From assembly GCA_026387355.1 (NCBI GenBank), contig JAPLLW010000011.1, forward strand, positions 9,504-73,503: a stretch of DNA of 64,000 bases, read 5' to 3'. The translations under genes were made by a program, and so were the position numbers. Below, piece by piece: positions 34,606 through 57,395 of this stretch; position 1 is the stretch's first letter; the number at the start of each line of letters is the position of its first letter. The notes beneath the pieces are model-generated. The model ran no database searches. It saw only the letters and a program-made list of their open reading frames with translations, and was not told the DNA's origin. This DNA is from Candidatus Omnitrophota bacterium. GTDB lineage: Bacteria > Omnitrophota > Gorgyraeia > Gygaellales > Profunditerraquicolaceae.

Positions 34606-35013
34606 TCAGAAATGTACTTCCATGGCGCGCGGCGGGCAGAGCTTTACGCAAAGTTCGCAGGCGATGCATTTCTTATTATCGAATGAAATTTCCCGTGTTT
34701 TAGGATCAACTATTAAAGCCTGTGTAGGACAAATCGGCACGCAAACACCGCAATTAGTACACCTCTCTTCATTTCTAATAACATCCTGACTTAAAGGTTG
34801 GATGCGCACGCCGCAAGATTTCAAATATTCAATACCCTTATCAAAATTCTCGCGCTTGCCCGTTAATTCCAAAACCATGAGTCCTTCTTCTTGCGGAGTT
34901 ACAAAAGCTTTAAGGATATTAAATTGTAAATCGAGCTCCTTAACCAGCTTATAAATAATCGGCTGATTAACCAATCGATGAGGAAAATGCAGAACTATTC
35001 TTTTAGAAACCAT
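34606..35013 (-). CDS. NIL-domain / 2x[4Fe-4S] ferredoxin protein (homocysteine biosynthesis partner, MA1822-like)
   Basis: N-terminal NIL-like domain. CTNCGVCVPICP and CIACELCVKLCP. Confidence 0.7.
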   Translation of the reverse strand: MVSKRIVLHFPHRLVNQPIIYKLVKELDLQFNILKAFVTPQEEGLMVLELTGKRENFDKGIEYLKSCGVRIQPLSQDVIRNEERCTNCGVCVPICPTQALIVDPKTREISFDNKKCIACELCVKLCPPRAMEVHF

Positions 35014-35014
35014 A

Positions 35015-36229
35015 TCACTCCTCTTTCTGTAATATCGGCCTCTCCTTGAGCAGCTTAAAACTATACCCGGAATCTGCCGCAGGGAGCTTTGCCACTGGTT
35101 CAGTTAATTCAAAATCACCTTTTTTAATCCAAGACTTTAATTCTTCGGATATTTTAACTGCCTTGGAATAACTAGAAAGGTTTCCCGTAGGAACCTCTTT
35201 ACCTTGAATAGTTATCTTGCCGGACTTTAATTGTTCATAGCTAGCCTCTCCGAGTGAACCTGGAATAACCTGCGGATAATTCTGGCTATAATCCACAATA
35301 GGCGCGTATATATCTTTATCCTTAGCTGCGGCATGCTGAATAACTTCTTCGTCTAGAACCGGAATCGGCACACCTATACCGACGATAAGCGTAACTCCGT
35401 AACCAAGCATACTTGTACCCACCAAATATTGTGACTTCATCTGTTTCAGGTCTCCGATAACCGAAAGAGTACCTCCGGGAACCTTAGTCGTTCCATTCTC
35501 TCTACGCGGTACTCCGGGATTATGCTGCGTCCCCTGCCAGGCAACAAAACCTATTCCTCCACCTAAGAAAATCTTAGTGCCTATACCAATAGTTTTATAA
35601 TACGGGTCCTTGAGTAGCGGAGAGAGTTGACCGGCCGAACAATAATTAGCATTACCAAGATTCGGCTTAAGCATCCCTAGATAAGTATAAATCGGCTTAT
35701 CCGATAAATTTACCGCAATATTATAGTTTTGATAGGCATTACGCATATTGAATAATACTGCCTCATTCAAATCTTTGATATTAAGCAGAGTCTCTAACTT
35801 TCTACGCGGATAGCAATCAGTACCGTAAGCAGTAGCATCAAGCCGCACATCTTTACCTGCGACAATATCTTCAATTACATGTGCGCCGCCGTATTTAAAT
35901 TCTCCGGGATAAACTTTATTACGCGGATCATCATCCGGAATGGCTGTTGCGCCCATATAAATATCCACTGCGGCAAACCCGGTATACGCAGGCACATCGT
36001 TAAGCGTACAGGTTCCTCCGCCGATTTTTATACGCGGCTTAGTATGCCCAATATTAAAATATGCGCCACTTGAACACATAGGACCGAATGTCCCGGTAGT
36101 AACAACATCTACCTCCTGCGCAACCTTCTTGACCCCTTTCTTCTCAACAAGGTCTATCACTTCCTCGGCAGTAACTACAACTACCTGCCCTTTTCTTATT
36201 TTCTCGTTAATCTCTTTTATCGTGCGCAT
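35015..36229 (-). CDS. DUF39/COG1900 homocysteine-biosynthesis enzyme (MA1821-like)
   Basis: 404 aa with a COG1900-like profile (…VVTTGTFGPMCSSGAYFN…GGGTC…). Adjacent to the NIL-ferredoxin. Confidence 0.7.
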   Translation of the reverse strand: MRTIKEINEKIRKGQVVVVTAEEVIDLVEKKGVKKVAQEVDVVTTGTFGPMCSSGAYFNIGHTKPRIKIGGGTCTLNDVPAYTGFAAVDIYMGATAIPDDDPRNKVYPGEFKYGGAHVIEDIVAGKDVRLDATAYGTDCYPRRKLETLLNIKDLNEAVLFNMRNAYQNYNIAVNLSDKPIYTYLGMLKPNLGNANYCSAGQLSPLLKDPYYKTIGIGTKIFLGGGIGFVAWQGTQHNPGVPRRENGTTKVPGGTLSVIGDLKQMKSQYLVGTSMLGYGVTLIVGIGVPIPVLDEEVIQHAAAKDKDIYAPIVDYSQNYPQVIPGSLGEASYEQLKSGKITIQGKEVPTGNLSSYSKAVKISEELKSWIKKGDFELTEPVAKLPAADSGYSFKLLKERPILQKEE

Positions 36230-36268
36230 CTTTACCCTTTCTTATCTTTAAATAAATTATTAAAAAGT

Positions 36269-36490
36269 TTAAATCGCAATTACCTCTTTTACCTCCGGAA
36301 CCTCTTCTTTAAGTATTCTCTCAATTCCCATCTTTAGAGTCATCTGAGACATCGGACAGCAACCACAGCTGCCCTTAAGCTTTAATTTTACTACCCCATC
36401 ACTGGTTACTTCTATTAATTCAACATTGCCACCATCAGCAATAAGCATAGGCCTAACCTTTTCTAACGCCTTCTCTACTCTGTCTCTCAT
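36269..36490 (-). CDS. NifU/Nfu-like Fe-S scaffold domain protein
   Basis: GGNVELIEV…GSCGCCPMS (Nfu C-terminal CxxC). Confidence 0.7.
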
Positions 36491-36505
36491 TTTATTCTCC
36501 TTTTG

Positions 36506-37426
36506 TTAGGTAAACAGGCCCGTGCTTAAATAACGCTCGCCGGTATCAGGTAAAATTACCACAATTAGCTTACCCTTATTCTCTTCTCTTTTAGCTACTT
36601 CTAGAGCCGCAAATAACGCAGCACCCGAAGATATCCCAGCCAATATCCCTTCCTCTTTGGCTAATCTCCGAGCTGTCTGGGCAGCATCCTCATTAGAAAC
36701 CTGGATTACCTCGTCAATAATTTTACGATTCAATATCGCAGGGACAAAACCTGCTCCGATGCCCTGAATCTTGTGCGGTCCGGGGGAGCCCCCTGATAAA
36801 ACCGGTGAATCTTTAGGCTCTACTGCAACGGCCTTAAAATTTGGCTTTTTCTTTTTAATCGCCTCGGCTATGCCCGTAACTGTACCTCCTGTTCCTACTC
36901 CGGCAACTAAAATATCAATCTTGCCGTCAGTATCTTCCCAGATCTCTCTTGCGGTTGTACGACGGTGGATCTCTGGATTCGCTGTATTCTCAAATTGCTG
37001 CAAAACAAAATATCGTTTATCATTTTTAGCTAGCTCAACTGCCTTTCTTACTGCCCCGGACATCCCTTCGCCTCCGGGAGTAAGAATAATCTCTGCACCA
37101 AAAGCAGCTAATAACTGCCTGCGTTCAAGACTCATAGTCTCAGGCATGGTCAAAATAAGTTTATATCCTTTTACTGCGCATACAAAAGCTAAAGCTATCC
37201 CCGTATTTCCGGAAGTAGGCTCAACAATAATCGTATCTTTCTTTATTCTGCTTTCCTTCTCAGCTGCCTCTATCATACTCAACCCAATTCTATCCTTAAC
37301 CGAAGAGCAAGGATTAAATGATTCGACTTTCACAACCACCGTAGCAAGCGCATCCTGGCTTAAACGGTTAAGCTTAACCAAAGGGGTATTCCCGATTAAC
37401 TCTGTGATATTCTTAGCTATCTTCAT
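36506..37426 (-). CDS. cysK: cysteine synthase A (O-acetylserine sulfhydrylase)
   Basis: PLP-lysine motif SVKDR. GTGGT glycine loop. Confidence 0.85.
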
Positions 37427-37429
37427 CTT

Positions 37430-37879
37430 TTAAATTTGATAAGTAGAAACGGCACTTGTCTTTTTTGTCCTCTTAACCAAATCCTCAAAAGTTATATTAT
37501 CTATAATCTTGCTCGTGGCTTTATTTACCTCATACCAAATATCTTTAAATGCGCAGGTTCCCATATCGCGACATCCTGAATACTCTTTACTTACGCAGGC
37601 AATCGGCTCAACTGAGCCGTCAATAAATCTAACTACCTCTCCAAGCTTGATCTCAGAAGGTGCTTTAGCCAAGAAATAACCACCAACGCTACCTCTTCTA
37701 CTTTCTACAAACCTGCCTCTTTTTAAATCTAGAAGTATCTGCTCTAAGAATTTAGTCGGAATATCCAGCCGCTTAGCAAGTTCAGTAATTGTTGCAGCGG
37801 GTTCTTCCCCATAATGTAGCGCCAACTCCAAAATTGTCTTTAAAGCATAATCGCCACGATAAGTTATGCGCATAATCAC
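37430..37879 (-). CDS. Rrf2-family regulator (IscR/CymR-like) with 3 Cys
   Basis: N-terminal wHTH (RITYRGDYALKTILELAL). CVSKEYSGCRDMGTC. Confidence 0.75.
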   Translation of the reverse strand: MIMRITYRGDYALKTILELALHYGEEPAATITELAKRLDIPTKFLEQILLDLKRGRFVESRRGSVGGYFLAKAPSEIKLGEVVRFIDGSVEPIACVSKEYSGCRDMGTCAFKDIWYEVNKATSKIIDNITFEDLVKRTKKTSAVSTYQI

Positions 37880-39040: not shown

Positions 39041-39970
39041 TTAGCTAAATGTTTTGCTATTTAAGTACTTAAATATATTCAAACACGCCTTTGAGCCTTC
39101 ACCTGCAGCAATAATAATTTGCTTCTCCGGGACATCAGTTACATCCCCCGCAGCAAAAATACCAGCTAGATTAGTCTGATTATGAGCGTTTATTTTGATC
39201 TCTCCTTGAATATTCCTTTCAACGTCTTTCACAAAATCCGCATTTGGAATTAACCCGATCTCTACAAATATACCCTGAAGCGAGATGATCTCCTCTGTGC
39301 CATCGCGTTTTATCTTAATAGCATTAACAAACTTGTCTCCTAAGACAGCAGTTACTTTAGTATCGTTAAAAATACTTACTCTTTTCGAGTCTTCTAACTT
39401 CTTACGCATAATTGCGTCGCCATTAAGCTTAGGTGTATTATTTATGATATAAACTTTCTCTGCAATCTTTACTAATTGCAATCCTGCATCCAAAGCGGAA
39501 TTTCCTCCTCCAATAACTGCAACGACTTTCCCGCTAAAAAGCGGTCCGTCGCAGGTTGCGCAATAGGTAAGCCCTTTATTCTTGAATTCTTTTTCTCCCG
39601 AAACACCCAACTCCCTTGAGCGCTTGCCTGAAGCAATAATAACTGCCCTTGCTTGATAATCACCCTTAACTGTCTTGACCGAAATAATCTCACCGGACTT
39701 TTTTATCTCCAAAACTTCTTCTTTCTCTTTAAGGCTAGTATTATATTTACGCATATGCTCTTCAAATTTCTGCGTAAGCTGCGGCCCGGTAATGAATTGG
39801 TAACCCGTATAATTCTCGATATCTCCGCTCCAGGCAGCCTGGCCTCCGATATCCTGCGTTATAACCAGAAAATCCATCTGTTTACGCGCAGCATAAACGC
39901 TGGCAGTAATCCCTGCCGGCCCGGCACCAATAATTATAAGATCGTAAATCTTCATACCTTGAGCACCCAA
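39041..39970 (-). CDS. trxB: thioredoxin reductase
   Basis: GAGPAG FAD motif and redox-active CATCDG. The true start is probably ATG 39955 (MKIYDLIIIG). The track uses TTG 39970. Confidence 0.85.
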   Translation of the reverse strand: MGAQGMKIYDLIIIGAGPAGITASVYAARKQMDFLVITQDIGGQAAWSGDIENYTGYQFITGPQLTQKFEEHMRKYNTSLKEKEEVLEIKKSGEIISVKTVKGDYQARAVIIASGKRSRELGVSGEKEFKNKGLTYCATCDGPLFSGKVVAVIGGGNSALDAGLQLVKIAEKVYIINNTPKLNGDAIMRKKLEDSKRVSIFNDTKVTAVLGDKFVNAIKIKRDGTEEIISLQGIFVEIGLIPNADFVKDVERNIQGEIKINAHNQTNLAGIFAAGDVTDVPEKQIIIAAGEGSKACLNIFKYLNSKTFS

Positions 39971-40045: not shown

Positions 40046-40291
40046 TTATAACCCCAAAGAAGATTTAATCTTCTCCTTGTCAAATCCAACGATAATTTCA
40101 CCTTCGATATCAATCACCGGAACACCCATCTGCCCGGTCTTCTTAATCATCTCTTCGGCCCTTACTTGGTCGGTTCCAACATCGTAATCCTCAAAAACAA
40201 TATTACTATCTTTCAAGAACTGCTTAACCCTAATACACCAGGGACAAGTCGGGGTACTATAGACTCTTACGCTTTTAGCCATATAAACCAT
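40046..40291 (-). CDS. glutaredoxin/NrdH-like thioredoxin-fold protein
   Basis: CPWC active site. 81 aa. Confidence 0.7.
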   Translation of the reverse strand: MVYMAKSVRVYSTPTCPWCIRVKQFLKDSNIVFEDYDVGTDQVRAEEMIKKTGQMGVPVIDIEGEIIVGFDKEKIKSSLGL

Positions 40292-40320: not shown

Positions 40321-40782
40321 TTATCTAAGATTATAAGGCGCTAGATCAACTACCTCTTGCACTTCAAATAAAATAAGGTATTTTGGCTTAGGGAGCGAGA
40401 CCTCCGGGTGAGGCGAATTGACTTTTTCTTCACGCAGATTCTTTAATAGCCTTTGGGTAGCCCTATTAGTAATCCTCTCTTCCCAAGACTTAAGCACTTC
40501 CGGGGTCATCTCTTTTTCAGAGAGAGAACTTGCCTTACCCTTAAGACAATACCCGATAAACTTATGTTCGTTAAAAGCAGTGATACTAGCCAAAGAGCTT
40601 CTTTTTAAATTCTCAAAGGTTTTCCCATGATAAACATCCAACAGATAAATCTTACCCTCTCTATCTATCTTAATAATATCTTTACAGGCACTATGCGGGA
40701 AACCTAGTGCATCAATAGTAGCTAAAATTACGCATCCCTGGCTTTCAAAAAACCTGATTACCGATTCAGTTAACTTAACCAT
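40321..40782 (-). CDS. PNPOx-like FMN-binding split-barrel protein
   Basis: Fold-level resemblance (…GCVILATIDALGFPH…). Low specificity. Confidence 0.5.
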   Translation of the reverse strand: MVKLTESVIRFFESQGCVILATIDALGFPHSACKDIIKIDREGKIYLLDVYHGKTFENLKRSSLASITAFNEHKFIGYCLKGKASSLSEKEMTPEVLKSWEERITNRATQRLLKNLREEKVNSPHPEVSLPKPKYLILFEVQEVVDLAPYNLR

Positions 40783-41965
40783 TTATTCTTCTCGCAAAAT
40801 CCTTTCCAAACTCAAAGCAACGCTGCATTTCATCTTTATCTGGAAGATACTTGAAGGCTATTCCGGGTTGAGCAACTTCTATGCCAGCCTTAATAACCAC
40901 TTCTTCCATCTCTTTAACCGAACCTCCTGCCCAGCCAAAAGAACCAAAACAGCTAGCTACCCTGTTTTTAGCAGCCAGGCCTTTTACAAATTCCAGAAAT
41001 CCTGCCATTGTCGGAAGCATTCCGTTATCATGAGTAGAAGAACCGAATATAAAACCTTTTGCATCAAGCATCTCTTTAATTACGTCGGTGCGATCAGCTT
41101 GATTAACGTCAAAAAACTTTACACTTACCCCGCTCTCGCTTAAGCCAGAGATTATCTGCCGAGCCATCTTTTCGGTTGCACCCCACATTGTCTCATAAAC
41201 TACAACTACCTTAGGTTTAGTTTCGTTCTTAGCCCAACTTAGATATTTATTTACTATTTGTAACGGATCTTTCCTCCAGATTAACCCGTGGCTAGGAGCA
41301 ATTATTTTTATTTCGATATTCATCTTCAAAACATCCGCAATCTTCTTCTCAATAAGTGAGCCCAGCGGCCAGAGTATATTTGCATAATATTTTGCTGCTT
41401 CATCCCATAAGGCGCATTGATCAACTTCGTCAGCAAAACGTTCCGAACTAGCCAAGTGCTGACCGAATGCGTCATTGGGCATAAGTAAAGACTCTTCGGG
41501 ACAATAGGTAAACATACTATCCGGCCAATGAATCATGGGAGCCTCTATAAAAGTAAGGCTACGCTTACCCAGTTTTAAAATATCACCGGTCTTAACTACC
41601 TGAGAATCCCAGTTAACGTAGTAATTTTTATATAAACCATCCTTGCATTTTGCCGTCCCCAAAATCTTTGCCTTCGGGCATAACCTCATTAACTCAGGCA
41701 GAGCCCCTGAATGGTCTGTTTCTACGTGATTTGCAATTATATAATCAATCTTTTCAAGTGGAGTAATCGCTTTAATATTCTCTATTAACTCATCCGAAAA
41801 AGAACCAAGCACCGTATCCACCAAAACAATCTTTTCATCAATAATTAAATATGCATTATAAGTTGTACCCCTTTTAGTAGTATAGGTATGCCCGTGAAAA
41901 CTACGCACATTCCAATCAACTACACCGACAGAATATATCCCGGGCAATAGTTTCGTAGCTGGCAT
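40775..41965 (-). CDS. flavodiiron protein (rubredoxin:oxygen/NO oxidoreductase, FprA)
   Basis: Metallo-beta-lactamase diiron motif HVETDHSG plus a C-terminal flavodoxin domain. Confidence 0.85.
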   Translation of the reverse strand: MPATKLLPGIYSVGVVDWNVRSFHGHTYTTKRGTTYNAYLIIDEKIVLVDTVLGSFSDELIENIKAITPLEKIDYIIANHVETDHSGALPELMRLCPKAKILGTAKCKDGLYKNYYVNWDSQVVKTGDILKLGKRSLTFIEAPMIHWPDSMFTYCPEESLLMPNDAFGQHLASSERFADEVDQCALWDEAAKYYANILWPLGSLIEKKIADVLKMNIEIKIIAPSHGLIWRKDPLQIVNKYLSWAKNETKPKVVVVYETMWGATEKMARQIISGLSESGVSVKFFDVNQADRTDVIKEMLDAKGFIFGSSTHDNGMLPTMAGFLEFVKGLAAKNRVASCFGSFGWAGGSVKEMEEVVIKAGIEVAQPGIAFKYLPDKDEMQRCFEFGKDFARRING

Positions 41966-41973: not shown

Positions 41974-42678
41974 CTAATATCCCTGAAAGTTTTCAGTAAT
42001 AATATTATCTTTTGCTAAACTTAATTCCTCAGCCAACATCTTCCTCATCGCCTCAACCATTGGAGGCGGGCCGCACAAATAAAATTTTCTTTCCAAATAA
42101 TCCTTAATTTCACTCTTAATCAACTGGGCATTAATTAAACCGGGCAGACATTTAAAAGACGGATCAGGCTCACAAAGAACGTGGATTACCCTTAATTTCT
42201 GATATGCTTTCTGCATAGCGTCAAAATCTTCTTTAAACACAATGTCTTTAATAGAACGGTTGGCATAAACTAAGACTATATCCGTACCCAGATTCTTATC
42301 CACGACGAATTTAGCCATACTCCTTAAAGGGGTTATGCCAATGCCTCCGGATAAGAAAACCAACTTCTCTCTCGACTCCCCTAAAGTAAACTTACCCATC
42401 GGATATTGAATTCTCACATTATCTTCGGGCTTAAGCTCATCAAGTGCTTTCGAGAAATCACTAGCGGTAATTCTCTTAGTAAATTCCAGATAAGCGCCTT
42501 CTGTAGGAGAGCTTGATATTGAAAGATACCTTTTTAGAGCGGGGTTATTTAAAAGGGTGACCGAGAGAAACTGGCCAGCCTTAAAATCAATAACACTATC
42601 GATCTTAAGACGAACGCTTTTAACATTATAGGTTCTCTGAATAACTTCACTTATTCTAGCTTCTAATTCAAGTGCCAT
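41974..42678 (-). CDS. FNR-like FAD/NAD(P)H oxidoreductase (possible rubredoxin reductase partner)
   Basis: RYLSISS FAD motif and GGIGITP NAD motif. No Fe-S Cys. Confidence 0.6.
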   Translation of the reverse strand: MALELEARISEVIQRTYNVKSVRLKIDSVIDFKAGQFLSVTLLNNPALKRYLSISSSPTEGAYLEFTKRITASDFSKALDELKPEDNVRIQYPMGKFTLGESREKLVFLSGGIGITPLRSMAKFVVDKNLGTDIVLVYANRSIKDIVFKEDFDAMQKAYQKLRVIHVLCEPDPSFKCLPGLINAQLIKSEIKDYLERKFYLCGPPPMVEAMRKMLAEELSLAKDNIITENFQGY

Positions 42679-43530
42679 CTAAACACCTAATTCGTCGATT
42701 ATCTTAGCCATAATAAAATCGTTTTCAGTGAGCCCTAAAGCTGCATGCGTACTAAGCGTAACTTTTAATTTATTAAAAGTTAGTGTCAAGGTCGGATGAT
42801 GCCCTTGATCCTGGGCGATAATTGAGATTAAATCTAGGAAAAATTTTGCCTCAACAAAATCAGCAAACTTAAACTCTTTAACTATTTTTCTATCTTCAAC
42901 TAATTCCCAGCCACGGCTAAGCGCAAGCAATCTCTCTAATTTTTCCTTAGAAATTGGCGCGATTTCTCCTTCACAAGGTTTACAGTGCAAAGACAGATCT
43001 TCCTTGAGCGTTAACGCAGGGCTCTTAATAACCTCCCCCAGATTCCTTAAAACATCCTCGTAATTTAAGGCGTGGGTTAATTCCGGGGCAATCTGGATGT
43101 ATCTTAAAATATTATTTTTATCTAAAATAAGCGCTGCCCTAGCTAGAAGTTTCAACTCTTTAATCAACAAACCATAATTTATCCCAAAAGAGGAAAATCG
43201 GTAATCTGAGAGTACCATTTCATTCTTAATTTCGTTTAAAGAACAAAATCGGCTTTGCGCAAAAGGTAGGTCATCACTTATCCCTAAGACTACGATATCA
43301 CTAGAAAGCTGGGCTATCTTTTTATTAAATTCCTTAACCTGCAGGTCACAGATAGGAGTATCTAAAGACGGGAAAGAACTAATTACCTTAATCTTGGCTT
43401 TAAAATCCGATAAACTTACTTCCTTTAGGCTATTAGAAATAACCTTAAAATCCGGAGCAATACTACCAAGACTGATTCGCCTTCCTACTAAAGTAAGCGG
43501 GTTTCCTTGAAAAGCTATTTTTAGCGGCAT
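42679..43530 (-). CDS. fusion: thiol peroxidase Tpx + pterin-4a-carbinolamine dehydratase (DCoH)-like domain
   Basis: Tpx: FQGNP…SLDTPIC…LPFAQSRFC…LARAA. C-terminal 100 aa: CKPCEG…GHHPTLTLTF…THAALGLTENDFIMA, matching the PCD [EDKH]x3H[HN]P signature. Confidence 0.7.
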   Translation of the reverse strand: MPLKIAFQGNPLTLVGRRISLGSIAPDFKVISNSLKEVSLSDFKAKIKVISSFPSLDTPICDLQVKEFNKKIAQLSSDIVVLGISDDLPFAQSRFCSLNEIKNEMVLSDYRFSSFGINYGLLIKELKLLARAALILDKNNILRYIQIAPELTHALNYEDVLRNLGEVIKSPALTLKEDLSLHCKPCEGEIAPISKEKLERLLALSRGWELVEDRKIVKEFKFADFVEAKFFLDLISIIAQDQGHHPTLTLTFNKLKVTLSTHAALGLTENDFIMAKIIDELGV

Positions 43531-43542: not shown

Positions 43543-43701
43543 TTAAATCTTCTCAAACATATCCTTGCCTACTCCGCAATCAGGACAGACCCAATCAACG
43601 GGAAGCTTATCAAAAGGCGTACCAGCAGGGATTCCGCCGACTGAATCACCTATAGCAGGGTCATAAATATAACCACAAACAGTACACTTATATTTATCCA
43701 T
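43543..43701 (-). CDS. rubredoxin (52 aa, not in the ORF track)
   Basis: Own translation [20 protein letters not shown]…[17 protein letters not shown]. Two CxxCG knuckles. Confidence 0.85.
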
Positions 43702-43728: not shown

Positions 43729-44130
43729 CTATTCTGCCTTGTAAATTACCCCTTTGTTACCGGCGCAACCTAACTTATCCTGATTAACATCCTTATCTTT
43801 AACGATAGCTTGCTTAGCCATAGGCGGAGTCTGTTCTCTAACCATGTCTCTTTTACTATCCATATTCTTATACATCTTATGGTGACCTGCCTTCATTCCC
43901 ATCATAGGACATGGAGGCCTCATTAAAGGCTTACCCGTCACTATATGAAAGATCCCGCATGATAAAACTAAACCCGCAGAAATCCATAACATAACCGCTA
44001 CAGCAAAACCAAAAAGTTTCAACTCTTTTTGCTCTACCTTGCGTAGCGCAAATAAAACAAAAAAACTTATGGTTAATAATACTGAACAAGGTATTACTGC
44101 AAATACACCTAATAATCTATGCATACCCAT
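43729..44130 (-). CDS. membrane protein with Met/His-rich segment (CPMMGMKAGHHKMY), possible metal binding
   Basis: Two TM helices, then MxM/HH motifs. Confidence 0.45.
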   Translation of the reverse strand: MGMHRLLGVFAVIPCSVLLTISFFVLFALRKVEQKELKLFGFAVAVMLWISAGLVLSCGIFHIVTGKPLMRPPCPMMGMKAGHHKMYKNMDSKRDMVREQTPPMAKQAIVKDKDVNQDKLGCAGNKGVIYKAE

Positions 44131-44145
44131 ATTTACCTCCTCAAA

Positions 44146-44634
44146 TTAGCCTTCTCTTTTACCTAATTCCCTATCTAACATAATTAAAGCCGCAGAATCC
44201 GGCTTGATTATTTTCAAGGTGTCCAAGATCGCCGAAGCATTCTTTTCTTCTTCAACCTGCTCGGTGATAAACCACTGCAGAAATATTTCAGCTGCCTTAT
44301 CATCGACTTTTTTAGCTAAATCACTTAAAGACTCGATGAGTGACGTAACTTTCTTTTCATGCTTTAAGGTCTCCACGAACAACTCCTGGACAGAAGCAAA
44401 ATCAAAGGCCGGCTCAGGGATGGCCTGCAGATGCACGCGCGCACCCTTATCATGCAGGAATTCAAACATCTTCATCCCGTGAGATATCTCTTCCTTGTAT
44501 TGGACCTTAAACCACTTAGCAAAACCCGGAAGATTATTGCTTTCGGCAAAAGCTGCCATTGCTAAATAAAGATACCCCGAATAAAATTCATTCTTGATCT
44601 GATCGTTAAATGCCTTCTCTAATTTCTTATCCAT
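44146..44634 (-). CDS. ferritin-like protein (non-heme ferritin)
   Basis: Ferritin diiron ligands (E…EExH…E…QxxE pattern). 162 aa. Confidence 0.7.
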   Translation of the reverse strand: MDKKLEKAFNDQIKNEFYSGYLYLAMAAFAESNNLPGFAKWFKVQYKEEISHGMKMFEFLHDKGARVHLQAIPEPAFDFASVQELFVETLKHEKKVTSLIESLSDLAKKVDDKAAEIFLQWFITEQVEEEKNASAILDTLKIIKPDSAALIMLDRELGKREG

Positions 44635-44649
44635 AAGACTCCCCTTTCT

Positions 44650-45039
44650 TTATTCAACCTTTAATTCCTTAGTATTCTTCCATATCCCGTGTATATTGCA
44701 ATAAGAAGTGACATAAATTGTCCCACTCTTCTCGGTTTTAAATGACACAGCTACGTTAGGCTCGGAGAAAACAGTACTAGTATTCGGTCCTTGCGTAGAC
44801 TCTCCGTGAGTATTGAGCTCGAAACGCGCCACCTGAAAAGGAAATTTCTCCCCCTCAGCTAAGAAATAAACCTCAATTGATTGAATATGATGCTCGGCAG
44901 TATTAGGGTGAGCTATCTCTTTGCCCACAATAACAGCAACCTTTAAAGACTCTCCTCTTTTAATTTTGTCCGGGGCCTCAATTACCGGAACATGTTTTTC
45001 GGTTTTCCAATCTGCGCTCTGTAATAATCAATCTACCAT
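44650..45039 (-). pseudogene. 1Fe superoxide reductase (neelaredoxin) with an in-frame TGA at codon 4 (45028-45030)
   Basis: From the ATG at 45039 with a good SD: M V D [TGA] L L Q S A D W K T E K H V P V I E … Y C N I H G I W. It is co-linear residue for residue with Pyrococcus SOR (MISETIRSGDWKGEKHVPVIE…CNIHGLW). The track ORF starts only at the GTG after the EKHVP motif. Confidence 0.65.
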
Positions 45040-45053
45040 CGCATCCCCCCCTC

Positions 45054-45093
45054 TTTAAAATAACCCCGGCGTCTTTCTTAGAAAAGCGCCGGG
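45054..45093 (-). terminator. hairpin CCCCGGCG-N14-CGCCGGGG followed by a U-rich tract, between the hcp region and the SOR
   Basis: Seen directly. Confidence 0.5.
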
Positions 45094-45101
45094 ATTCAAA
45101 A

Positions 45102-45155
45102 CTACTTCTTCTTTGCTTTCTTCTTTTTCTTTGCTCCGCATTTTCCACAACCCAT
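45102..45155 (-). CDS. 17-aa ORF MGCGKCGAKKKKKAKKK with SD AGGAGGTG, directly after the hcp stop
   Basis: Own translation. Strong ribosome-binding site 5 nt upstream. Could be spurious. Confidence 0.25.
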   Translation of the reverse strand: MGCGKCGAKKKKKAKKK

Positions 45156-45169
45156 ATCCACCTCCTGAT

Positions 45170-46462
45170 TTATTTACTTAAAATTGTTTTTAAGTCTCCA
45201 TCCGGAGTACTGATTAATCTTAAATCAAAACTCTTTTGTAAAACCGAGAATACATTCTTAGAAATAAACGCCGGCGGGGTCGGCCCGACATAAATACCCT
45301 TGATATTAAGATACAACAAAGTGAGCAATATGGCAACTGCTTTTTGCTCAAACCACGATAGAACCATGGTTAAAGGGAGTTCGTTTACTGTACAGTTAAA
45401 TACTTTGCTTAAAGCAAGTGCCACCTGAATTGCAGAATAGGCATTATTACACTGGCCAATATCAATTAGCCGCGGAACCCCATCTATCTCCCCAAAATCC
45501 AGCTTGTTAAAACGGTATTTACCACAGGCAAGCGTAAGGATAACGCAGTCTTTAGGGACTTTTTCCGCAATTTCAGTATAGTAATTCCTACCTGGCTTGG
45601 CACCATCGCAACCGCCGATTAGAAAGAATCTTTTAATCTTTCCTGTCTTAACCAGATTAACAATCTTATCCGCTAAATTTAAGATTGCAGTATGGTGAAA
45701 TCCGGTCAAAATCTTCTTACCCGGAGCCTCTGGCAAAGAAGGTAGGGATTTTGCTTTATCAATCAAAAGCTTGAAATTTCTATCTTTTAAATGCGTAGCC
45801 CCGGGGACACCGGTAATTCCTATTGTAAATAAACGGTCTAAATAGCTATTCTCCGGAGGGATTAATACGCAATTAGTGGTTGCTAGAATAGCGCCACTAA
45901 AATTATTAAACTCGTTTTTTTGCTCCTGCCAAGCTCCTCCATAGTTTCCGACAAGATGCTTGAATTTCTTTAACTCAGGATACCCGTGCGCAGGTAACAT
46001 CTCGCTATGTGTATAAATATTTACGCCTGTGCCTTCGGCCTGCTTCAACAGCTCAAATAAATCCAGTAAATCATGGCCTGTAATCAATATGCCTGGCCCA
46101 GATTTTGTCCCTGTCTCGACAGGAGTTGGAACCGGATTCCCAAAGCTTTCAGTATGGGCCTTGTCTAATAACTCCATAACCTTTAAATTCATCTCTCCGC
46201 ATTTTAATACTTCTTCAAGATGCTGATTAAGGTCAAAACTCACATTTGTAATCGTTTTAAATAGTGCTTCGTGCATAAATGCATCAACCTTTTCATCCCA
46301 GGCGCCAAACTCCCTAGCATGATAGGCGTATGCTGCAATACCTTTTAACCCGAATAATAAAATATCCTGCAGGCTTTGGATATCTTCGTTTTTCCCGCAC
46401 GCACCTACTGATTTTGTACAAGCGCTCCCGCCAATTGTCTGCTCACACTGATAACAAAACAT
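45170..46462 (-). CDS. hcp: hybrid cluster protein / hydroxylamine reductase (short class)
   Basis: N-terminal MFCYQCEQT Cys motif. 430 aa. Confidence 0.85.
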   Translation of the reverse strand: MFCYQCEQTIGGSACTKSVGACGKNEDIQSLQDILLFGLKGIAAYAYHAREFGAWDEKVDAFMHEALFKTITNVSFDLNQHLEEVLKCGEMNLKVMELLDKAHTESFGNPVPTPVETGTKSGPGILITGHDLLDLFELLKQAEGTGVNIYTHSEMLPAHGYPELKKFKHLVGNYGGAWQEQKNEFNNFSGAILATTNCVLIPPENSYLDRLFTIGITGVPGATHLKDRNFKLLIDKAKSLPSLPEAPGKKILTGFHHTAILNLADKIVNLVKTGKIKRFFLIGGCDGAKPGRNYYTEIAEKVPKDCVILTLACGKYRFNKLDFGEIDGVPRLIDIGQCNNAYSAIQVALALSKVFNCTVNELPLTMVLSWFEQKAVAILLTLLYLNIKGIYVGPTPPAFISKNVFSVLQKSFDLRLISTPDGDLKTILSK

Positions 46463-46692
46463 TACTTACCTCCTTTTAACTGCTTCCACTTCTCTTCTCC
46501 GATACATTCTCTTGCCGCTTTACACCAATCTACGCAGGATGGTAAACGACTCCTGCAGATAAAACCCTTACATTTAGGACATTTTACTTTTATCTCATCC
46601 GTAAAGATCTCAGCCGTATAACCGCAATCCGGACACCTAATCGGCTCTGCCTTTATATTACGGTCATCTTGCCCGGGACATTTATTAATCAC
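46462..46692 (-). CDS. Cys-rich zinc-ribbon-like small protein
   Basis: CPDCGY…CPKCKG knuckles. 76 aa. Confidence 0.5.
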   Translation of the reverse strand: MINKCPGQDDRNIKAEPIRCPDCGYTAEIFTDEIKVKCPKCKGFICRSRLPSCVDWCKAARECIGEEKWKQLKGGK

Positions 46693-47528
46693 TTTAGCCT
46701 CTCTCCCTTGATCCCGATTATTACCTCTTGGAACGGGATCTTCTTACCAGAACCAGCAATCGCTTCTTCAACAACTCCGAGCAAACCAGAACAACAAGGA
46801 ACCTCAATATGGACATAGGTCATAGATTTAAGATTATTATTTTCGATTATCTGTTTAATCTTCTGCTTATAAATATCGATATTGTCGAGTTTCGGACAAC
46901 CAACCAATAAAACCTTCCCCTTAAGCAAATCTTCATGAAAGGAAGGATATGCAAAAGCTACGCAATCCGCTGCAATTAATAAATCGGCATTATTTAGGAA
47001 AGGCGCAAAAGCCGGAACGAGCATTATCTGCACCGGCCAGTTGACTAACTCTGACTCCCTATTTGCTGAAACTTCTTTATTAGTCGTAGTCTGTTTATGC
47101 TTTAAATCCATTATCTTTGAGCCAGGGCAACCACCAGAGATATGCTGATGTGCTCCTATTCCGGCTTGCGCATCAATGGGATTATTAATCCCTTTTTCTT
47201 TTAAATAAGAGAGGGCTTCGTGCAAATATCCCTGCTCATTATGCTCTTTTAGATGATTAAGATGCGCCTTAATCACATTCGCGCCCTGCTTAACAATATT
47301 CTCCATCACCTTTCGCTCGCTGTATTTCTCTGCCTCTCTCTCCTCTATAATAATTGCGCCCTCTGGGCAATGCCCAAGACATGCGCCCAGGCCATCGCAA
47401 AATAAATCACTAATTAGGCGCGCTTTACCATCGATAATCTGGATAGCTCCCTCAGGGCAGTTAGGAATACACAACCCGCAGCCATTACATTTATCCTCTT
47501 CAATCTTAATAATCTTTCGCTTTGACAT
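46689..47528 (-). CDS. 2x[4Fe-4S] ferredoxin-domain protein with Cys-containing C-terminal domain
   Basis: CNGCGLCIPNCP and CDGLGACLGHCP, followed by CVAF…GCPK…PCCSG. Confidence 0.6.
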   Translation of the reverse strand: MSKRKIIKIEEDKCNGCGLCIPNCPEGAIQIIDGKARLISDLFCDGLGACLGHCPEGAIIIEEREAEKYSERKVMENIVKQGANVIKAHLNHLKEHNEQGYLHEALSYLKEKGINNPIDAQAGIGAHQHISGGCPGSKIMDLKHKQTTTNKEVSANRESELVNWPVQIMLVPAFAPFLNNADLLIAADCVAFAYPSFHEDLLKGKVLLVGCPKLDNIDIYKQKIKQIIENNNLKSMTYVHIEVPCCSGLLGVVEEAIAGSGKKIPFQEVIIGIKGERLK

Positions 47529-47537
47529 TTACTAAAC

Positions 47538-47939
47538 TTAGCTCCTTAATAATAATGCTATGCTTACAGTTCCCAATTCTCTCAAAACATAATCCTCAAT
47601 TTTAACAATCTTTTTCCTTAATGGGCAACTTCCAGTATGAGGACAAACAATCTTCTTTAAAAAACACTCATTCAGGCTTGGCTTACCCTGGAATATACGC
47701 ATAATATCAGTTAAAAATATCTTTGCCGGTTCCTTGGCAAGAATAAACCCGCCACTCTGTCCCTTAAAAGACTCGAGAATCTTTTTTTTATTCAGCTGCT
47801 GGAGTATTTTTCTTAAGAATGGCCTGGGCAATTGCAATGCCAGAGCCAACTTCTTCACAGAAACAATACAACCTTTACGCTGAGCAATTAAACATAGGGC
47901 CCTTACCGCATAATCAGTATCTCTAGTTATTAATTTCAT
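47538..47939 (-). CDS. Rrf2-family regulator, NsrR-like (3 Cys)
   Basis: N-terminal wHTH DYAVRALCLIAQ. CFLKKIVCPHTGSCP. Sits upstream of hcp, as NsrR regulons do. Confidence 0.75.
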   Translation of the reverse strand: MKLITRDTDYAVRALCLIAQRKGCIVSVKKLALALQLPRPFLRKILQQLNKKKILESFKGQSGGFILAKEPAKIFLTDIMRIFQGKPSLNECFLKKIVCPHTGSCPLRKKIVKIEDYVLRELGTVSIALLLRS

Positions 47940-48147: not shown

Positions 48148-48495
48148 TTACTTTACCGTAATCTCTTTTTCGAGCTTTCCACTTAAATTACAATACCCCT
48201 CTACCGAAAGTTTATCCCCGGGCCTTACATTAACGATCGCGTAACTTACGCTTTGGGTAGCCGAGTTATCCTGCTTTGTGAACTTGAGCTCTTTTATCTC
48301 TTTACCATTTAATCCAATATCAACTTTCTTAATATAGTGTGTTGCTGGATTGCTTACACTATGTTTGATTACCGCATTAAGCGTATTTGTTTTTTTGTCA
48401 AAGGTTATAATAATATCCTGCGGTGGATGCGCATAGGCTACAACTGATAATGTAAAACAAAAACACAGCAAAATAAATAAAACCTTTCTTTTCAT
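48148..48495 (-). CDS. exported SOR-fold-like (desulfoferrodoxin Fe-binding-domain-like) protein with altered metal ligands
   Basis: Signal peptide …VVAYA|HPPQ. NPATHYIKKVDI vs HPNTAEHHIQSIEV of SOR, and YCNLSG vs YCNIHG of SOR. Inferred by eye alignment to the SOR in this window. Confidence 0.4.
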   Translation of the reverse strand: MKRKVLFILLCFCFTLSVVAYAHPPQDIIITFDKKTNTLNAVIKHSVSNPATHYIKKVDIGLNGKEIKELKFTKQDNSATQSVSYAIVNVRPGDKLSVEGYCNLSGKLEKEITVK

Positions 48496-49238
48496 GCCTT
48501 CCTCCTTTGCGATATCTTGTTCAAGATCGGAACAAAAAGATTTAAAACTAATAACGCACCTATCTCTGCGTCAAAACTTACTCCGCTTTGAGTAAAAATA
48601 AAAATTAAAGCAGCAACACTAGCGCCAAAGGTTAACTTAGCTAAAAAATTAAACGGAGTTGATTTAGGCTCAATTAACATTATAAAGATAAAAAAGTAAC
48701 TAAGATAACCGAAAATTGATCCTATTGGCTCTCTACGTATTAATGCCTGTGATCCAAAAATAACCAGCGAAGTAATAAAATAACTGAGGAGTAGTTCTAG
48801 TTTATGTATCTTAAAAATAAAATACAGACCTACAGGAATAAGGATATACCATAAATACGTCCCTCTCCATTGGGTTTGGGCGCCTAGAAGTAAGGTCGCC
48901 AAAATTACGCCAAATCCAGCGGGATTAAATATGTGCTTCTTGTTAAAGCGAATTAAATACTTTGATGAGATAGCAAAAACTGATGTCAATACGATAACCC
49001 ACCAATGGCTATCACTAGCTAACACAAAGCCGATTATTAATCCTGTGATAATCGAGCTTTCCGATATAGAAAACCTTTTATCTTTTAAATAGAGTAGCAA
49101 TGATTCCGCTGCAATTGCGCTTATTAACGCAATCGCAGTAGCAAAGAAAAAAGAGCTATCTTTATCTATAAACGATAAGGATAAACCAAACAAAATCAGA
49201 AATAGAATTAGCTGCTTTTTAATTGAGACAGGTTTCAT
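48492..49238 (-). CDS. polytopic membrane protein, unknown function
   Basis: About 7 TM helices. HIFNPAGFG motif. Overlaps neighbours on both sides. Confidence 0.55.
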   Translation of the reverse strand: MKPVSIKKQLILFLILFGLSLSFIDKDSSFFFATAIALISAIAAESLLLYLKDKRFSISESSIITGLIIGFVLASDSHWWVIVLTSVFAISSKYLIRFNKKHIFNPAGFGVILATLLLGAQTQWRGTYLWYILIPVGLYFIFKIHKLELLLSYFITSLVIFGSQALIRREPIGSIFGYLSYFFIFIMLIEPKSTPFNFLAKLTFGASVAALIFIFTQSGVSFDAEIGALLVLNLFVPILNKISQRRKA

Positions 49239-55938: not shown

Positions 55939-56025
55939 AATTAAATTTCTTCTACTACTTAACCTAGGTTAGGCTTTCTTCCGTGGTTCGCTTTCTTAGT
56001 GCGCCAGTTAAGTTTGCCTCTACGT

Positions 56026-56718: not shown

Positions 56719-56727
56719 TAAGTTAAA

Positions 56728-56751
56728 GGCAGGGAGTTCTTAAGCCCTGCC
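56728..56751 (-). terminator. hairpin GGCAGGG-N9-CCCTGCC after gene 56783-57268 (weak U-tract)
   Basis: Seen directly. Confidence 0.35.
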
Positions 56752-56782
56752 ATATATACTTTATTTTATATACGCCGAACTA

Positions 56783-57268: not shown

Positions 57269-57350
57269 CTAAACCCTCCTTTTATGGTTTTACTTTACCA
57301 CAAAAGAGAGCTTTTGTCAATAAAATGAGCCTATCGGATATTTATTTCAA

Positions 57351-57395
57351 AATAAAAAAGGGCTGGCTTACGCTACAAAAGCCAACCCTCTTTCT
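57351..57395. terminator. bidirectional terminator (GGGCTGGCTT…AAGCCAACCC flanked by A- and T-runs)
   Basis: Seen directly. 9/10 bp stem. Confidence 0.5.

What the first reader, a model, noticed from the sequence alone, without database searches (positions are those of the whole stretch)
42679..43530. Thiol peroxidase (Tpx) fused to a pterin-4a-carbinolamine dehydratase (DCoH)-like domain
Seen: the N-terminal 170 aa align motif by motif with Tpx (FQGNP, peroxidatic Cys in SLDTPIC, resolving Cys in AQSRFC). The C-terminal ~100 aa carry the PCD signature (…GW…FKFADFVEA…GHHPTLTLTF…THAALGL…D) preceded by a CKPC pair.

I am not aware of a described Tpx-DCoH fusion. DCoH-like domains also act as protein-interaction or dimerisation modules.
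Basis: partly seen in the sequence, partly recalled or inferred. Interest (0 to 1): 0.5.

Follow-up and report, generated by a model that had tools for sequence, protein, structure and literature searches.

The report
Thiol peroxidase fused to pterin dehydratase
A real, widely conserved gene in oxygen-sensitive bacteria joins a peroxide-destroying enzyme (Tpx) to a complete pterin-recycling enzyme (PCD) inside an oxygen-defence operon; the combination has not been described in the literature searched and hints that 'orphan' PCDs act in oxidative-damage control.

Summary
ORF 42679..43530 (minus strand, 283 aa) encodes a full Tpx-type peroxiredoxin (residues 4-164) and a full PhhB-type pterin-4a-carbinolamine dehydratase (182-283).

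- Tpx scores 172.6 bits on NCBIfam NF001808 (cut-off 123). Pfam Pterin_4a scores 87.5 bits (cut-off 26).
- It is not an assembly artefact. All 120 listed clusters from the first search have the same length and both domains. At least 80 GTDB species representatives carry the junction.
- Most carriers are Omnitrophota. Others are labelled anammox Planctomycetota, Gammaproteobacteria, Parachlamydiales and Spirochaetota.
- 198 of 217 non-identical fusions keep both Tpx cysteines, the CxxC and the PCD histidines.
- The PCD core is more conserved than the Tpx domain (72% vs 65% pairwise identity).
- The 'CKPC' pair is the native N-terminus of bacterial PCDs, including P. aeruginosa PhhB. It is not a fusion novelty.
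- The gene sits in a recurrent Rrf2-headed O2/ROS-defence island.
- No pterin, folate or Moco gene lies in the annotated 56 kb of the window or recurs beside the fusion.

Best reading: a bifunctional oxidative-stress enzyme. How the two activities are coupled is inferred only. A small lineage keeps a catalytically dead PCD domain, so the fold also has a structural role. I found no paper describing it. Verdict: new variant of known kinds, moderate interest.

The parts
42679..43530 (-). Whole Tpx-PCD fusion gene (283 aa plus TAG stop). An AGGTG Shine-Dalgarno lies 8 nt upstream of the ATG, and the stop abuts the ATG of the next gene.
43039..43521 (-). Tpx (atypical 2-Cys peroxiredoxin) domain, residues 4-164. 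Peroxidatic Cys61 is at 43348-43350, resolving Cys96 at 43243-43245; Thr58 and Arg131 are present.
   Evidence: NF001808 172.6 bits vs cut-off 123. Foldseek TM 0.95, rmsd 1.2 A to S. aureus Tpx 3p7x. Conservation: C61 138/140, C96 132/140, R131 137/140.
42988..43038 (-). Inter-domain linker, residues 165-181: the least conserved segment and the one with the lowest model confidence.
   Evidence: 37% mean pairwise identity; pLDDT about 67-71
42682..42987 (-). Complete PhhB-type pterin-4a-carbinolamine dehydratase domain, residues 182-283. CxxC (C183, C186) is at 42973-42984, His244-His245-Pro246 at 42793-42801, His262 at 42745-42747; Asp271 is present.
   Evidence: Pfam PF01329 87.5 bits, E 6.7e-25. 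PDB PCDs 2ebb 9.8e-15 and rat DCoH 1dch 1.5e-12. CxxC aligned with free-standing PCDs. Conservation figures.
43543..43701 (-). Rubredoxin gene immediately upstream in the same operon.
   Evidence: PF00301 E 2.4e-23; a rubredoxin match is present in 36 of 80 related loci
41974..42678 (-). FNR-like FAD/NAD(P)-binding reductase; its start codon abuts the fusion's stop codon.
   Evidence: PF00175 and PF00970; present in 28 of 80 related loci
40775..41965 (-). Flavodiiron protein (O2/NO reductase).
   Evidence: ODP/Lactamase_B plus Flavodoxin_1; the most frequent neighbour, 37 of 80 loci
40321..40782 (-). PNPOx-like flavin-binding protein.
   Evidence: PF01243; 18-22 of 80 loci
40046..40291 (-). 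Small glutaredoxin-like protein with a CPWC motif; candidate direct reductant of the Tpx domain (inferred).
   Evidence: PF00462 E 8.4e-18; 21-24 of 80 loci
39041..39970 (-). Thioredoxin-reductase-like flavoprotein; candidate NAD(P)H-linked reductase for the Grx-like protein (inferred).
   Evidence: Pyr_redox_2 E 8.7e-39; 19 of 80 loci
43729..47939 (-). Upstream half of the island. In transcription order: Rrf2 regulator (47538-47939), Fer4 protein (46689-47528), small Cys-rich protein (46462-46692), hybrid-cluster protein (45170-46462), superoxide reductase (44650-45039, with an in-frame TGA at codon 4), ferritin (44146-44634), membrane protein (43729-44130).
   Evidence: the same order is seen in L003 and L005

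Best explanation
The gene encodes a bifunctional oxidative-stress enzyme of an anaerobe, probably an Omnitrophota bacterium.

Shown:
- The N-terminal domain is a canonical Tpx-subfamily atypical 2-Cys peroxiredoxin (PxxxTxxC with Cys61, resolving Cys96, Arg131).
- The C-terminal domain is a complete bacterial PhhB-type PCD with its N-terminal CxxC, the His-His-Pro...His set and the terminal Asp intact.
- The two are joined by a variable linker of about 17 residues.
- The gene is co-oriented and tightly packed inside an Rrf2-headed O2/ROS/NO-defence operon.

Inferred:
- The Tpx domain reduces H2O2 and organic hydroperoxides. It is probably recycled by the Grx-like (CPWC) and TrxR-like pair encoded five and six genes downstream, by analogy with the Clostridium pasteurianum Cp34/Cp9/peroxiredoxin system (recalled from memory).
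- The PCD domain dehydrates 4a-hydroxy-tetrahydropterins to quinonoid dihydropterins.
- The fusion exists because both reactions handle what forms when reduced pterins meet O2: peroxide on one side and 4a-oxygenated pterin on the other. In the tightest version, Tpx reduces a pterin 4a-hydroperoxide to exactly the 4a-carbinolamine that PCD dehydrates. The neighbouring FNR-like reductase or another enzyme would then re-reduce the quinonoid product.
- The PCD fold also contributes structurally, because the model packs it against Tpx.
For: - Domain identities.
- Residue conservation: 198 of 217 non-identical fusions keep CP, CR, CxxC and the His set. The PCD core has 72% mean pairwise identity against 65% for Tpx, so the PCD part is under at least as strong purifying selection.
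- PCD signature: the catalytic histidines align with those of rat DCoH and of the solved bacterial and protist PCDs. The published PCD activity signature is matched by 167 of 217 members. The window protein differs only by Q for [EDKH] at the first position.
- Context: in 80 GTDB loci the recurrent same-strand neighbours are FDP (37), FNR-like (28), DJ-1/PfpI (28), rubrerythrin (24), SOR (23), Grx (21), TrxR (19), Rrf2 (19) and HCP (16). The operon order is identical in L003 and L005.
- Module behaviour: the Tpx-PCD unit is further fused to rhodanese or rubrerythrin. It occurs at 53-64% identity under several phylum labels, so it is inherited or transferred as one module.
- Structure: AF2 pLDDT 89 and pTM 0.86 for the two-domain chain.
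- Chemistry and precedent: tetrahydropterin autoxidation yields quinonoid dihydropterin, H2O2 and superoxide (PMC9737128). PCDs in organisms without aromatic amino acid hydroxylases are active and have an unexplained role linked to Moco (Naponelli 2008, as summarised in PMC3223725).
Against: - No pterin, folate or molybdopterin gene is found in the annotated 56 kb of the window or among the 40 most recurrent neighbour families. The pterin link therefore rests on the domain alone.
- The review read here states that the pterin hydroperoxide is thermodynamically unfavoured (PMC9737128), which weakens the channelling version.
- All five NCBIfam PCD equivalog models score below their cut-offs.
- Several side lineages lost the catalytic histidines but kept the domain. 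Catalysis is therefore not the only reason to keep it.
Confidence: 0.55

Rival explanations
1. The PCD domain is mainly a structural module. Like DCoH with HNF1, or the PCD-like acRAF with RuBisCO, it would serve as an oligomerisation or partner-docking scaffold for the Tpx dimer. Pterin chemistry would be irrelevant in vivo, and the conserved histidines would reflect a ligand- or partner-binding pocket rather than catalysis.
For: - The P0139/P0360/P0361 lineage lost the CxxC and all catalytic histidines but keeps a full-length C-terminal domain. That domain is still about 54% identical between members that are 66% identical overall.
- 8 of 20 distant clusters lost part of the His set.
- pTM 0.86 suggests a fixed packing of the domain on Tpx.
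- There is a weak match to the non-catalytic acRAF structure 4low.
- No pterin genes occur in the context.
Against: - In the main clade the catalytic positions are nearly invariant: H244 137/140, H245 132/140, P246 139/140, H262 133/140, D271 138/140.
- The PCD core is more conserved than Tpx.
- Known non-catalytic PCD-like proteins have lost these residues, whereas the window protein has not.
- The degenerate lineages are few and small.
Confidence: 0.25
2. The CxxC at the start of the PCD domain acts as a built-in redox relay or alternative resolving centre for the Tpx peroxidatic cysteine. The fusion would then be a self-contained thiol relay, analogous to Prx-Grx or Prx-Trx hybrid proteins.
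For: - The CxxC is conserved (C183 136/140, C186 133/140) and lies on the flexible linker side of the domain.
- Five of the six distant members that kept CP but lost the resolving Cys retain the full CxxC. Almost no member lacks both.
Against: - The same CxxC exists in free-standing PCDs that have no peroxiredoxin partner, including PhhB in the phhA operon. It was therefore inherited, not evolved for the fusion.
- It co-varies with the PCD histidines rather than with the Tpx cysteines: both present 205, CxxC only 4, His set only 2, neither 6.
- The association with loss of CR rests on 18 non-independent sequences and is not significant.
Confidence: 0.1
3. The apparent fusion is an artefact: a frameshift, misassembly or gene-calling error that joins two adjacent genes.
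For: None found. Read support could not be examined.
Against: - It is a single uninterrupted ORF with its own Shine-Dalgarno.
- The same 279-295 aa architecture appears in all 120 listed clusters from NCBI, JGI, ENA and Logan assemblies.
- It is found in about 25 clusters at 50% identity.
- All 80 listed GTDB matches span the junction.
Confidence: 0.01

Closest known systems
Thiol peroxidase Tpx (E. coli, Yersinia, S. aureus, M. tuberculosis; atypical 2-Cys peroxiredoxin)
   Same: The N-terminal 164 residues pass the Tpx equivalog model. They have the PxxxTxxC motif, the resolving Cys about 35 residues downstream and the conserved Arg. The model superposes on 3p7x at rmsd 1.2 A and TM 0.95, with 36-45% identity to solved Tpx proteins.
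   Different: Known Tpx proteins are single-domain, about 165 aa. This one carries a C-terminal extension of about 120 residues comprising a whole second enzyme. No listed PDB chain spans both domains.
Bacterial pterin-4a-carbinolamine dehydratase PhhB (P. aeruginosa) and other COG2154/PF01329 proteins
   Same: Residues 182-283 align end to end with free-standing PCDs at 33-41% identity. The alignment includes the N-terminal CxxC, W208, HHP, the second His and NDFIMA.
   Different: - PhhB is a free-standing protein of about 118 aa encoded next to phenylalanine hydroxylase. Here the domain is fused to a peroxidase.
- No hydroxylase or pterin gene was found in the annotated 56 kb of the window.
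- The domain scores below the NCBIfam equivalog cut-offs.
- Q240 replaces the acidic or basic first residue of the activity signature.
'Partnerless' PCDs of organisms lacking aromatic amino acid hydroxylases (Naponelli et al. 2008, Plant Physiol 146:1515; cited in PMC3223725)
   Same: It is a catalytically intact PCD in an organism, and a context, where no hydroxylase partner is evident.
   Different: Those proteins are free-standing and were linked by phylogenomics to Moco metabolism. Here the physical partner is a peroxidase and the context is ROS defence, with no Moco genes nearby.
Hybrid peroxiredoxins (Prx-Grx of Haemophilus influenzae; the plant NTRC / 2-Cys Prx system; recalled from memory, NTRC context from PMC6812714)
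   Same: A peroxiredoxin is covalently or functionally joined to a second redox-related module.
   Different: In those systems the partner is the reductant of the peroxiredoxin. A PCD is a dehydratase with no known thiol-transfer role. As a lead only: an Arabidopsis plastid PCD-like protein, PDL1, is listed among NTRC interactors.
Non-catalytic PCD-like proteins (acRAF/RAF2 RuBisCO assembly factor; DCoH as HNF1 cofactor)
   Same: They share the fold, and they show that the fold can act as a protein-binding module. The P0139 lineage of the fusion resembles them in having lost the histidines.
   Different: The window protein and the main clade keep the full catalytic set. The sequence match to acRAF (4low) is marginal, E 0.0016.

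Membership tests
Tpx subfamily of peroxiredoxins | Profile match above the curated threshold of the Tpx equivalog model | tested here: met
   NF001808 scores 172.6 bits against a cut-off of 123, residues 4-164 on profile positions 3-165 of 167
Tpx subfamily of peroxiredoxins | PxxxT/SxxC active-site motif with the peroxidatic Cys, plus the conserved Arg | tested here: met
   P54-S-L-D-T58-P-I-C61 and R131. C61 is kept in 138/140 and R131 in 137/140 family members
Tpx subfamily of peroxiredoxins | Resolving Cys about 34 residues after CP (E. coli C95), giving the atypical 2-Cys mechanism | tested here: met
   C96 lies in AQSRFC and is kept in 132/140 members. It is lost in a few distant members
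Tpx subfamily of peroxiredoxins | Tpx fold | tested here: met
   The AF2 model matches 3p7x, 2yzh, 1psq and 2xpd with TM 0.90-0.95 and rmsd 1.2-1.8 A
Tpx subfamily of peroxiredoxins | Thioredoxin-dependent hydroperoxide reductase activity | not testable with these tools
   Needs an enzyme assay. A Grx-like and TrxR-like pair is encoded in the operon
Pterin-4a-carbinolamine dehydratase superfamily (Pfam PF01329 / COG2154) | Domain profile match above the Pfam gathering score over the full profile | tested here: met
   87.5 bits against 26, profile positions 2-91 of 91. Sequence matches to solved PCDs: 2ebb 9.8e-15, 2v6s 3e-13, 1dch 1.5e-12
Pterin-4a-carbinolamine dehydratase superfamily (Pfam PF01329 / COG2154) | Catalytic histidines (rat DCoH His61, His62, His79) and the terminal Asp | tested here: met
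   H244, H245, H262 and D271 align with HHP...H...D of rat DCoH and of bacterial and protist PCDs. They are kept in 132-138 of 140 members
Pterin-4a-carbinolamine dehydratase superfamily (Pfam PF01329 / COG2154) | PCD activity signature [EDKH]-x3-H-[HN]-[PCS]-x5,6-[YWF]-x9-[HW]-x8,15-D (Naponelli 2008; recalled from memory, paper not held) | tested here: inconclusive
   The window protein matches every position except the first, where Q240 replaces [EDKH]. 167 of 217 fusions match fully. Position 240 is E in 169 and Q in 37
NCBIfam 4a-hydroxytetrahydrobiopterin dehydratase equivalogs (PRK00823 series) | Score above the curated equivalog cut-off | tested here: not met
   85 vs 137, 70.8 vs 108, 69.6 vs 146, 68.7 vs 133 and 67.4 vs 80. 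It is therefore a divergent PCD-family domain, not an assigned equivalog, which is why pipelines name the protein only 'thiol peroxidase'
PhhB-type bacterial PCD | N-terminal CxxC preceding the conserved Trp | tested here: met
   C183 and C186 align with the CxxC of P. aeruginosa PhhB, Methylocystis and Acetoanaerobium PCDs, and both Cys are invariant in alignment A2
PhhB-type bacterial PCD | Genomic partnership with a pterin-dependent aromatic amino acid hydroxylase | tested here: not met
   No hydroxylase or pterin-synthesis gene occurs in the annotated 56 kb of the window or among recurrent neighbours in 80 loci. Whole genomes could not be searched
PhhB-type bacterial PCD | 4a-hydroxytetrahydropterin dehydratase activity | not testable with these tools
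   Needs an enzyme assay or E. coli complementation
Non-catalytic PCD-like proteins (acRAF/RAF2 type) | Loss of the catalytic histidines with retention of the fold | tested here: not met
   The window protein keeps H244, H245 and H262. Only side lineages such as P0139, P0360 and P0361 fit this description

The most novel reading that the evidence does not exclude
The fusion is a 'Rosetta stone' for the long-unexplained partnerless PCDs. In anaerobes, PCD would be a metabolite-damage-control enzyme for reduced pterins (folate, molybdopterin or an unknown pterin) that have been oxygenated at C4a. In this protein it would be kinetically coupled to a peroxidase: Tpx converts a pterin 4a-hydroperoxide, or removes the H2O2 it releases, and PCD immediately dehydrates the resulting 4a-carbinolamine to the re-reducible quinonoid form. 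That would avoid side products such as the 7-substituted pterins that form when the carbinolamine dehydrates non-enzymatically (PMC9737128).
Probability: 0.2. Interest if true: 0.7.

Novelty: new variant of a known kind. Interest (0 to 1): 0.45.

Why it matters
Both halves are textbook enzymes, but their covalent union is undescribed in the literature I could search. It is nonetheless widespread: hundreds of sequence clusters and at least 80 species-level genomes, mostly uncultured Omnitrophota plus anammox and other anaerobe-associated lineages.

Since 2008 it has been known that many organisms have an active PCD but no pterin-dependent hydroxylase, and the reason is still open. A conserved physical fusion of PCD to a peroxidase inside an O2/ROS-defence operon is direct comparative evidence that places a partnerless PCD in oxidative-damage control. 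It also gives a concrete, expressible protein with which to test that idea.

On the practical side, annotation pipelines miss the second domain, so every member is labelled simply 'thiol peroxidase'.

Tried and rejected
- Assembly or frameshift artefact: rejected, because the fusion recurs in independent assemblies.
- CKPC as a fusion-specific redox motif: rejected, because free-standing PCDs have the same CxxC.
- 'Dead Tpx with intact PCD' (P0157) as evidence that PCD is the selected activity: P0157 is a singleton whose nearest relatives are normal fusions at about 38% identity, so it carries little weight.
- Pterin, folate or Moco neighbours: none in the annotated 56 kb of the window and none among the top 40 neighbour families in 80 loci.
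- TGA recoding as the explanation for the interrupted SOR gene: rejected, because TGA ends 20 of 71 ORFs.

Technical dead ends:
- The afdb50 fold library was unavailable.
- The 15-sequence junction alignment A4 was too diverse for the search for related loci, so the 5-sequence A5 was used instead.
- Naponelli 2008 (PMC2287330) is not held.
- The AF2 model coordinates are not exposed, so the inter-domain interface and the position of the CxxC relative to either active site could not be inspected.
- ORFs at 30646-32636 and 55198-64000 were not run against profile libraries.
- The literature searches for the architecture returned nothing relevant.
Full report
**1. What is there**

The window has a single uninterrupted ORF on the minus strand at 42679..43530 (283 aa, ATG start, TAG stop). 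An AGGTG Shine-Dalgarno lies 8 nt upstream of the ATG and overlaps the end of the rubredoxin gene. The TAG stop is followed directly by the ATG of the next gene.

Profile searches confirm both halves. Pfam Redoxin/AhpC-TSA covers residues 22-161 (E 3e-20 and 1e-17). Pterin_4a covers 192-281 (E 6.7e-25, 87.5 bits against a gathering score of 26, profile positions 2-91 of 91). The NCBIfam Tpx equivalog NF001808 scores 172.6 bits against a cut-off of 123. The five NCBIfam PCD equivalog models score 67-85 bits, all below their cut-offs. That explains why public annotation calls these proteins only 'thiol peroxidase'.

**2. Not an artefact, and not rare**

The first homology search listed 120 clusters (90% identity level). 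All are 270-295 aa and all carry both Pfam domains. They come from NCBI, JGI, ENA and Logan assemblies, and the named ones are Candidatus Omnitrophota.

An exhaustive HMMER scan of 1.84 billion cluster representatives found about 25 clusters at 50% identity that align over query residues 4-281, down to 37% identity.

A scan of one genome per GTDB species, using a junction-spanning query (residues 104-283), found 104 relatives. The best 80 all span the junction. Most are Omnitrophota. By record title, others are:
- Ca. Jettenia ecosi and Ca. Loosdrechtia aerotolerans (anammox)
- several 'Planctomycetales' MAGs
- Coxiellaceae and Gammaproteobacteria MAGs
- a Parachlamydiales MAG (690 kb contig)
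- Spirochaetota and Clostridia MAGs

Later searches add Margulisiibacteriota, Deltaproteobacteria and FCPU426 labels and a Spirochaetales MAG. MAG taxonomic labels are only as good as the binning, but several of these contigs are hundreds of kilobases long.

Variants with a third domain exist: Rhodanese-Tpx-PCD and Rubrerythrin-Tpx-PCD. The Tpx-PCD pair therefore behaves as one evolutionary module.

**3. Anatomy and conservation**

The key residues in 140 full-length fusions:

| Domain | Residue | Conserved in |
|---|---|---|
| Tpx | Cys61 (peroxidatic) | 138 |
| Tpx | Cys96 (resolving) | 132 |
| Tpx | Arg131 | 137 |
| Linker / PCD N-terminus | C183 | 136 |
| Linker / PCD N-terminus | C186 | 133 |
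| PCD | W208 | 140 |
| PCD | H244 | 137 |
| PCD | H245 | 132 |
| PCD | P246 | 139 |
| PCD | H262 | 133 |
| PCD | D271 | 138 |

After adding the GTDB proteins, 198 of 217 non-identical fusions keep both Tpx cysteines, the CxxC and the His set together.

Mean pairwise identity by segment is 65% for Tpx, 37% for the linker, 52% for the PCD N-terminal segment and 72% for the PCD core. The PCD core is the most constrained part of the protein.

The C-terminal region matches solved PCDs by sequence: Geobacillus 2ebb at 9.8e-15, Toxoplasma 2v6s at 3e-13 and rat DCoH 1dch at 1.5e-12. In those alignments the HHP and STH histidines are in register.

The published PCD activity signature (Naponelli 2008, recalled from memory because the paper is not held) is matched by 167 of 217 fusions. 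The window protein deviates only at the first position, Q240 instead of [EDKH].

**4. The CKPC pair**

The solved structures begin after this position. Free-standing PCD genes found by tblastn in plasmid and chromid records align from exactly this point. P. aeruginosa PhhB (next to phhA and phhR), the Methylocystis PCD and the Acetoanaerobium PCD all carry a CxxC that aligns with C183 and C186.

The pair is therefore the ancestral N-terminus of PhhB-type PCDs, and the fusion joins two complete enzymes. Within the fusion family the CxxC co-varies with the His set: both present 205, CxxC only 4, His set only 2, neither 6. These counts are not phylogenetically independent. What the CxxC does in any PCD is unknown to me.

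**5. Structure**

AlphaFold2 with the 140-sequence alignment gives mean pLDDT 89 and pTM 0.86. Confidence dips only in the linker, at about 67-71.

Foldseek against the PDB returns Tpx structures: 3p7x at TM 0.95 and rmsd 1.2 A, plus 2yzh, 1psq, 2xpd and E. coli 3hvv. None of the listed chains spans both domains.

**6. Context**

In the window the gene lies in a co-directional, tightly packed island. In transcription order it contains:
- Rrf2 regulator
- 4Fe-4S protein
- small Cys-rich protein
- hybrid-cluster protein
- superoxide reductase
- ferritin
- membrane protein
- rubredoxin
- Tpx-PCD
- FNR-like reductase
- flavodiiron protein
- PNPOx-like protein
- glutaredoxin-like protein (CPWC)
- thioredoxin-reductase-like protein

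The same order occurs in two metagenomic contigs (L003 and L005).

Across the 80 GTDB loci, unbiased clustering of neighbouring ORFs gives these recurrent families:

| Neighbour family | Loci (of 80) |
|---|---|
| Flavodiiron protein | 37 |
| FNR-like reductase | 28 |
| DJ-1/PfpI | 28 (26 directly downstream) |
| Rubrerythrin | 24 |
| 2-oxoacid:ferredoxin oxidoreductase alpha / beta | 24 / 22 |
| Superoxide reductase | 23 |
| Grx-like | 21 |
| TrxR-like | 19 |
| Rrf2 | 19 |
| PNPOx-like | 18 |
| Hybrid-cluster protein | 16 |
| VIT1 | 10 |

No pterin-, folate- or Moco-related family appears among the top 40. None is found in the annotated 56 kb of the window either. That stretch does encode a group-4 membrane-bound [NiFe]-hydrogenase module, which fits an anaerobic lifestyle.

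**7. Tests between catalytic and structural roles for the PCD domain**

- A form with dead Tpx cysteines but an intact PCD (P0157) turned out to be a singleton. It is uninformative.
- A form with a dead PCD (P0139) belongs to a small lineage of three clusters: P0139, P0360 (82%) and P0361 (66%). All are 271 aa. They have an 11-residue deletion that removes the CxxC, and all catalytic histidines are replaced. The C-terminal domain is nevertheless retained and still recognisably conserved: I counted about 54% identity by eye between members that are 66% identical overall.
- Eight of 20 distant clusters have lost part of the His set.

My conclusion is that catalytic integrity is under strong selection in the main clade, which includes the window protein. 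The fold also does something that survives loss of catalysis.

**8. Mechanism**

Shown: the domain identities, the conserved catalytic residues, the operon membership and the modular inheritance.

Inferred:
- The Tpx domain is a hydroperoxide reductase. It is probably recycled by the operon's Grx-like and TrxR-like pair, by analogy with the Clostridium pasteurianum Cp34/Cp9 peroxiredoxin-reducing system (my recollection).
- The PCD domain dehydrates 4a-hydroxytetrahydropterins.
- The link between them is that reduced pterins exposed to O2 give peroxide, superoxide and oxidised pterin (PMC9737128). The product of a two-electron reduction of a pterin 4a-hydroperoxide is exactly the PCD substrate.

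The same review says the pterin hydroperoxide is disfavoured. I therefore rate strict channelling as the less likely version, and co-localised clean-up of two consequences of the same chemistry as the more likely one.

This connects to the open question of 'partnerless' PCDs. COG2154 proteins are active in organisms without aromatic amino acid hydroxylases and have been linked to Moco metabolism (PMC3223725 citing Naponelli 2008).

**9. Prior knowledge and novelty**

Full-text searches found no description of a Tpx-PCD or peroxiredoxin-DCoH fusion. The only tangential link is that the Arabidopsis plastid PCD-like protein PDL1 is listed among in vivo NTRC interactors.

The architecture is visible in databases but unremarked and under-annotated. 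I classify it as a new variant of known kinds. Interest is moderate: the parts are ordinary, but the combination is conserved, phylogenetically broad and bears on an open functional question.

Noticed in passing
window 44650-45039 (-), TGA at 45028-45030: The superoxide reductase gene has a good Shine-Dalgarno and an ATG at 45039-45037. An in-frame TGA follows at codon 4, after which the frame continues as a normal 1Fe-SOR (LLQSADWKTEKHVP...). TGA is an ordinary stop elsewhere in the window (20 of 71 ORFs). This is therefore a nonsense mutation, a sequencing error or a case of reinitiation, not recoding.
   Followed up: partly
whole window: 67 of 71 ORFs of at least 100 aa lie on the minus strand, an unusually strong co-orientation over 64 kb. 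G+C is 39%.
   Followed up: no
window 48148-49238 (-); L001/L018, L069, L072, L073: An RnfD/NqrB-like 248-aa membrane protein plus a 115-aa protein sit just upstream of the Rrf2 regulator here. The same pair lies directly downstream of the fusion in several loci that lack the rest of the island, so it may belong to the same functional set.
   Followed up: partly
P0121, P0133, P0300, P0304, P0349 (Rhodanese-Tpx-PCD); P0125 (Rubrerythrin-Tpx-PCD); P0129, P0151 (tandem double Tpx): There are higher-order fusions built on the Tpx-PCD unit. The rhodanese form occurs in a MAG labelled Gammaproteobacteria (L011/L089). There are also proteins with two Tpx domains in tandem.
   Followed up: partly
L014-L093 (26 of 80 loci), e.g. 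L056 6539-7051: A DJ-1/PfpI family gene (170 aa, Pfam E 1e-50) directly follows the fusion in 26 GTDB loci but is absent from this window. VIT1 iron transporters, or rubrerythrin-VIT fusions, often precede the fusion.
   Followed up: partly
window 13785-20193 (-) and 7426-7920 (-): A group-4 (Ech/Mbh-like) membrane-bound [NiFe]-hydrogenase module is present: NuoD-like large subunit, 30-kDa, 20-kDa, NuoH-like and antiporter-like subunits, and Fer4 proteins. A HycI maturation protease gene lies nearby.
   Followed up: no
window 34606-37879 (-): A second Rrf2 regulator is followed by cysteine synthase (PALP), a HcyBio homocysteine-biosynthesis enzyme and a NIL-ferredoxin. This looks like a sulfur amino acid cluster immediately downstream of the ROS island.
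   Followed up: no
alignment of 217 fusions; A2: The N-terminal CxxC of PhhB-type PCDs co-varies with the catalytic His set (both 205, CxxC only 4, His only 2, neither 6). It is invariant in the three free-standing PCDs examined. Its function in any PCD is unknown to me, and it lies outside all solved PCD structures matched here.
   Followed up: partly
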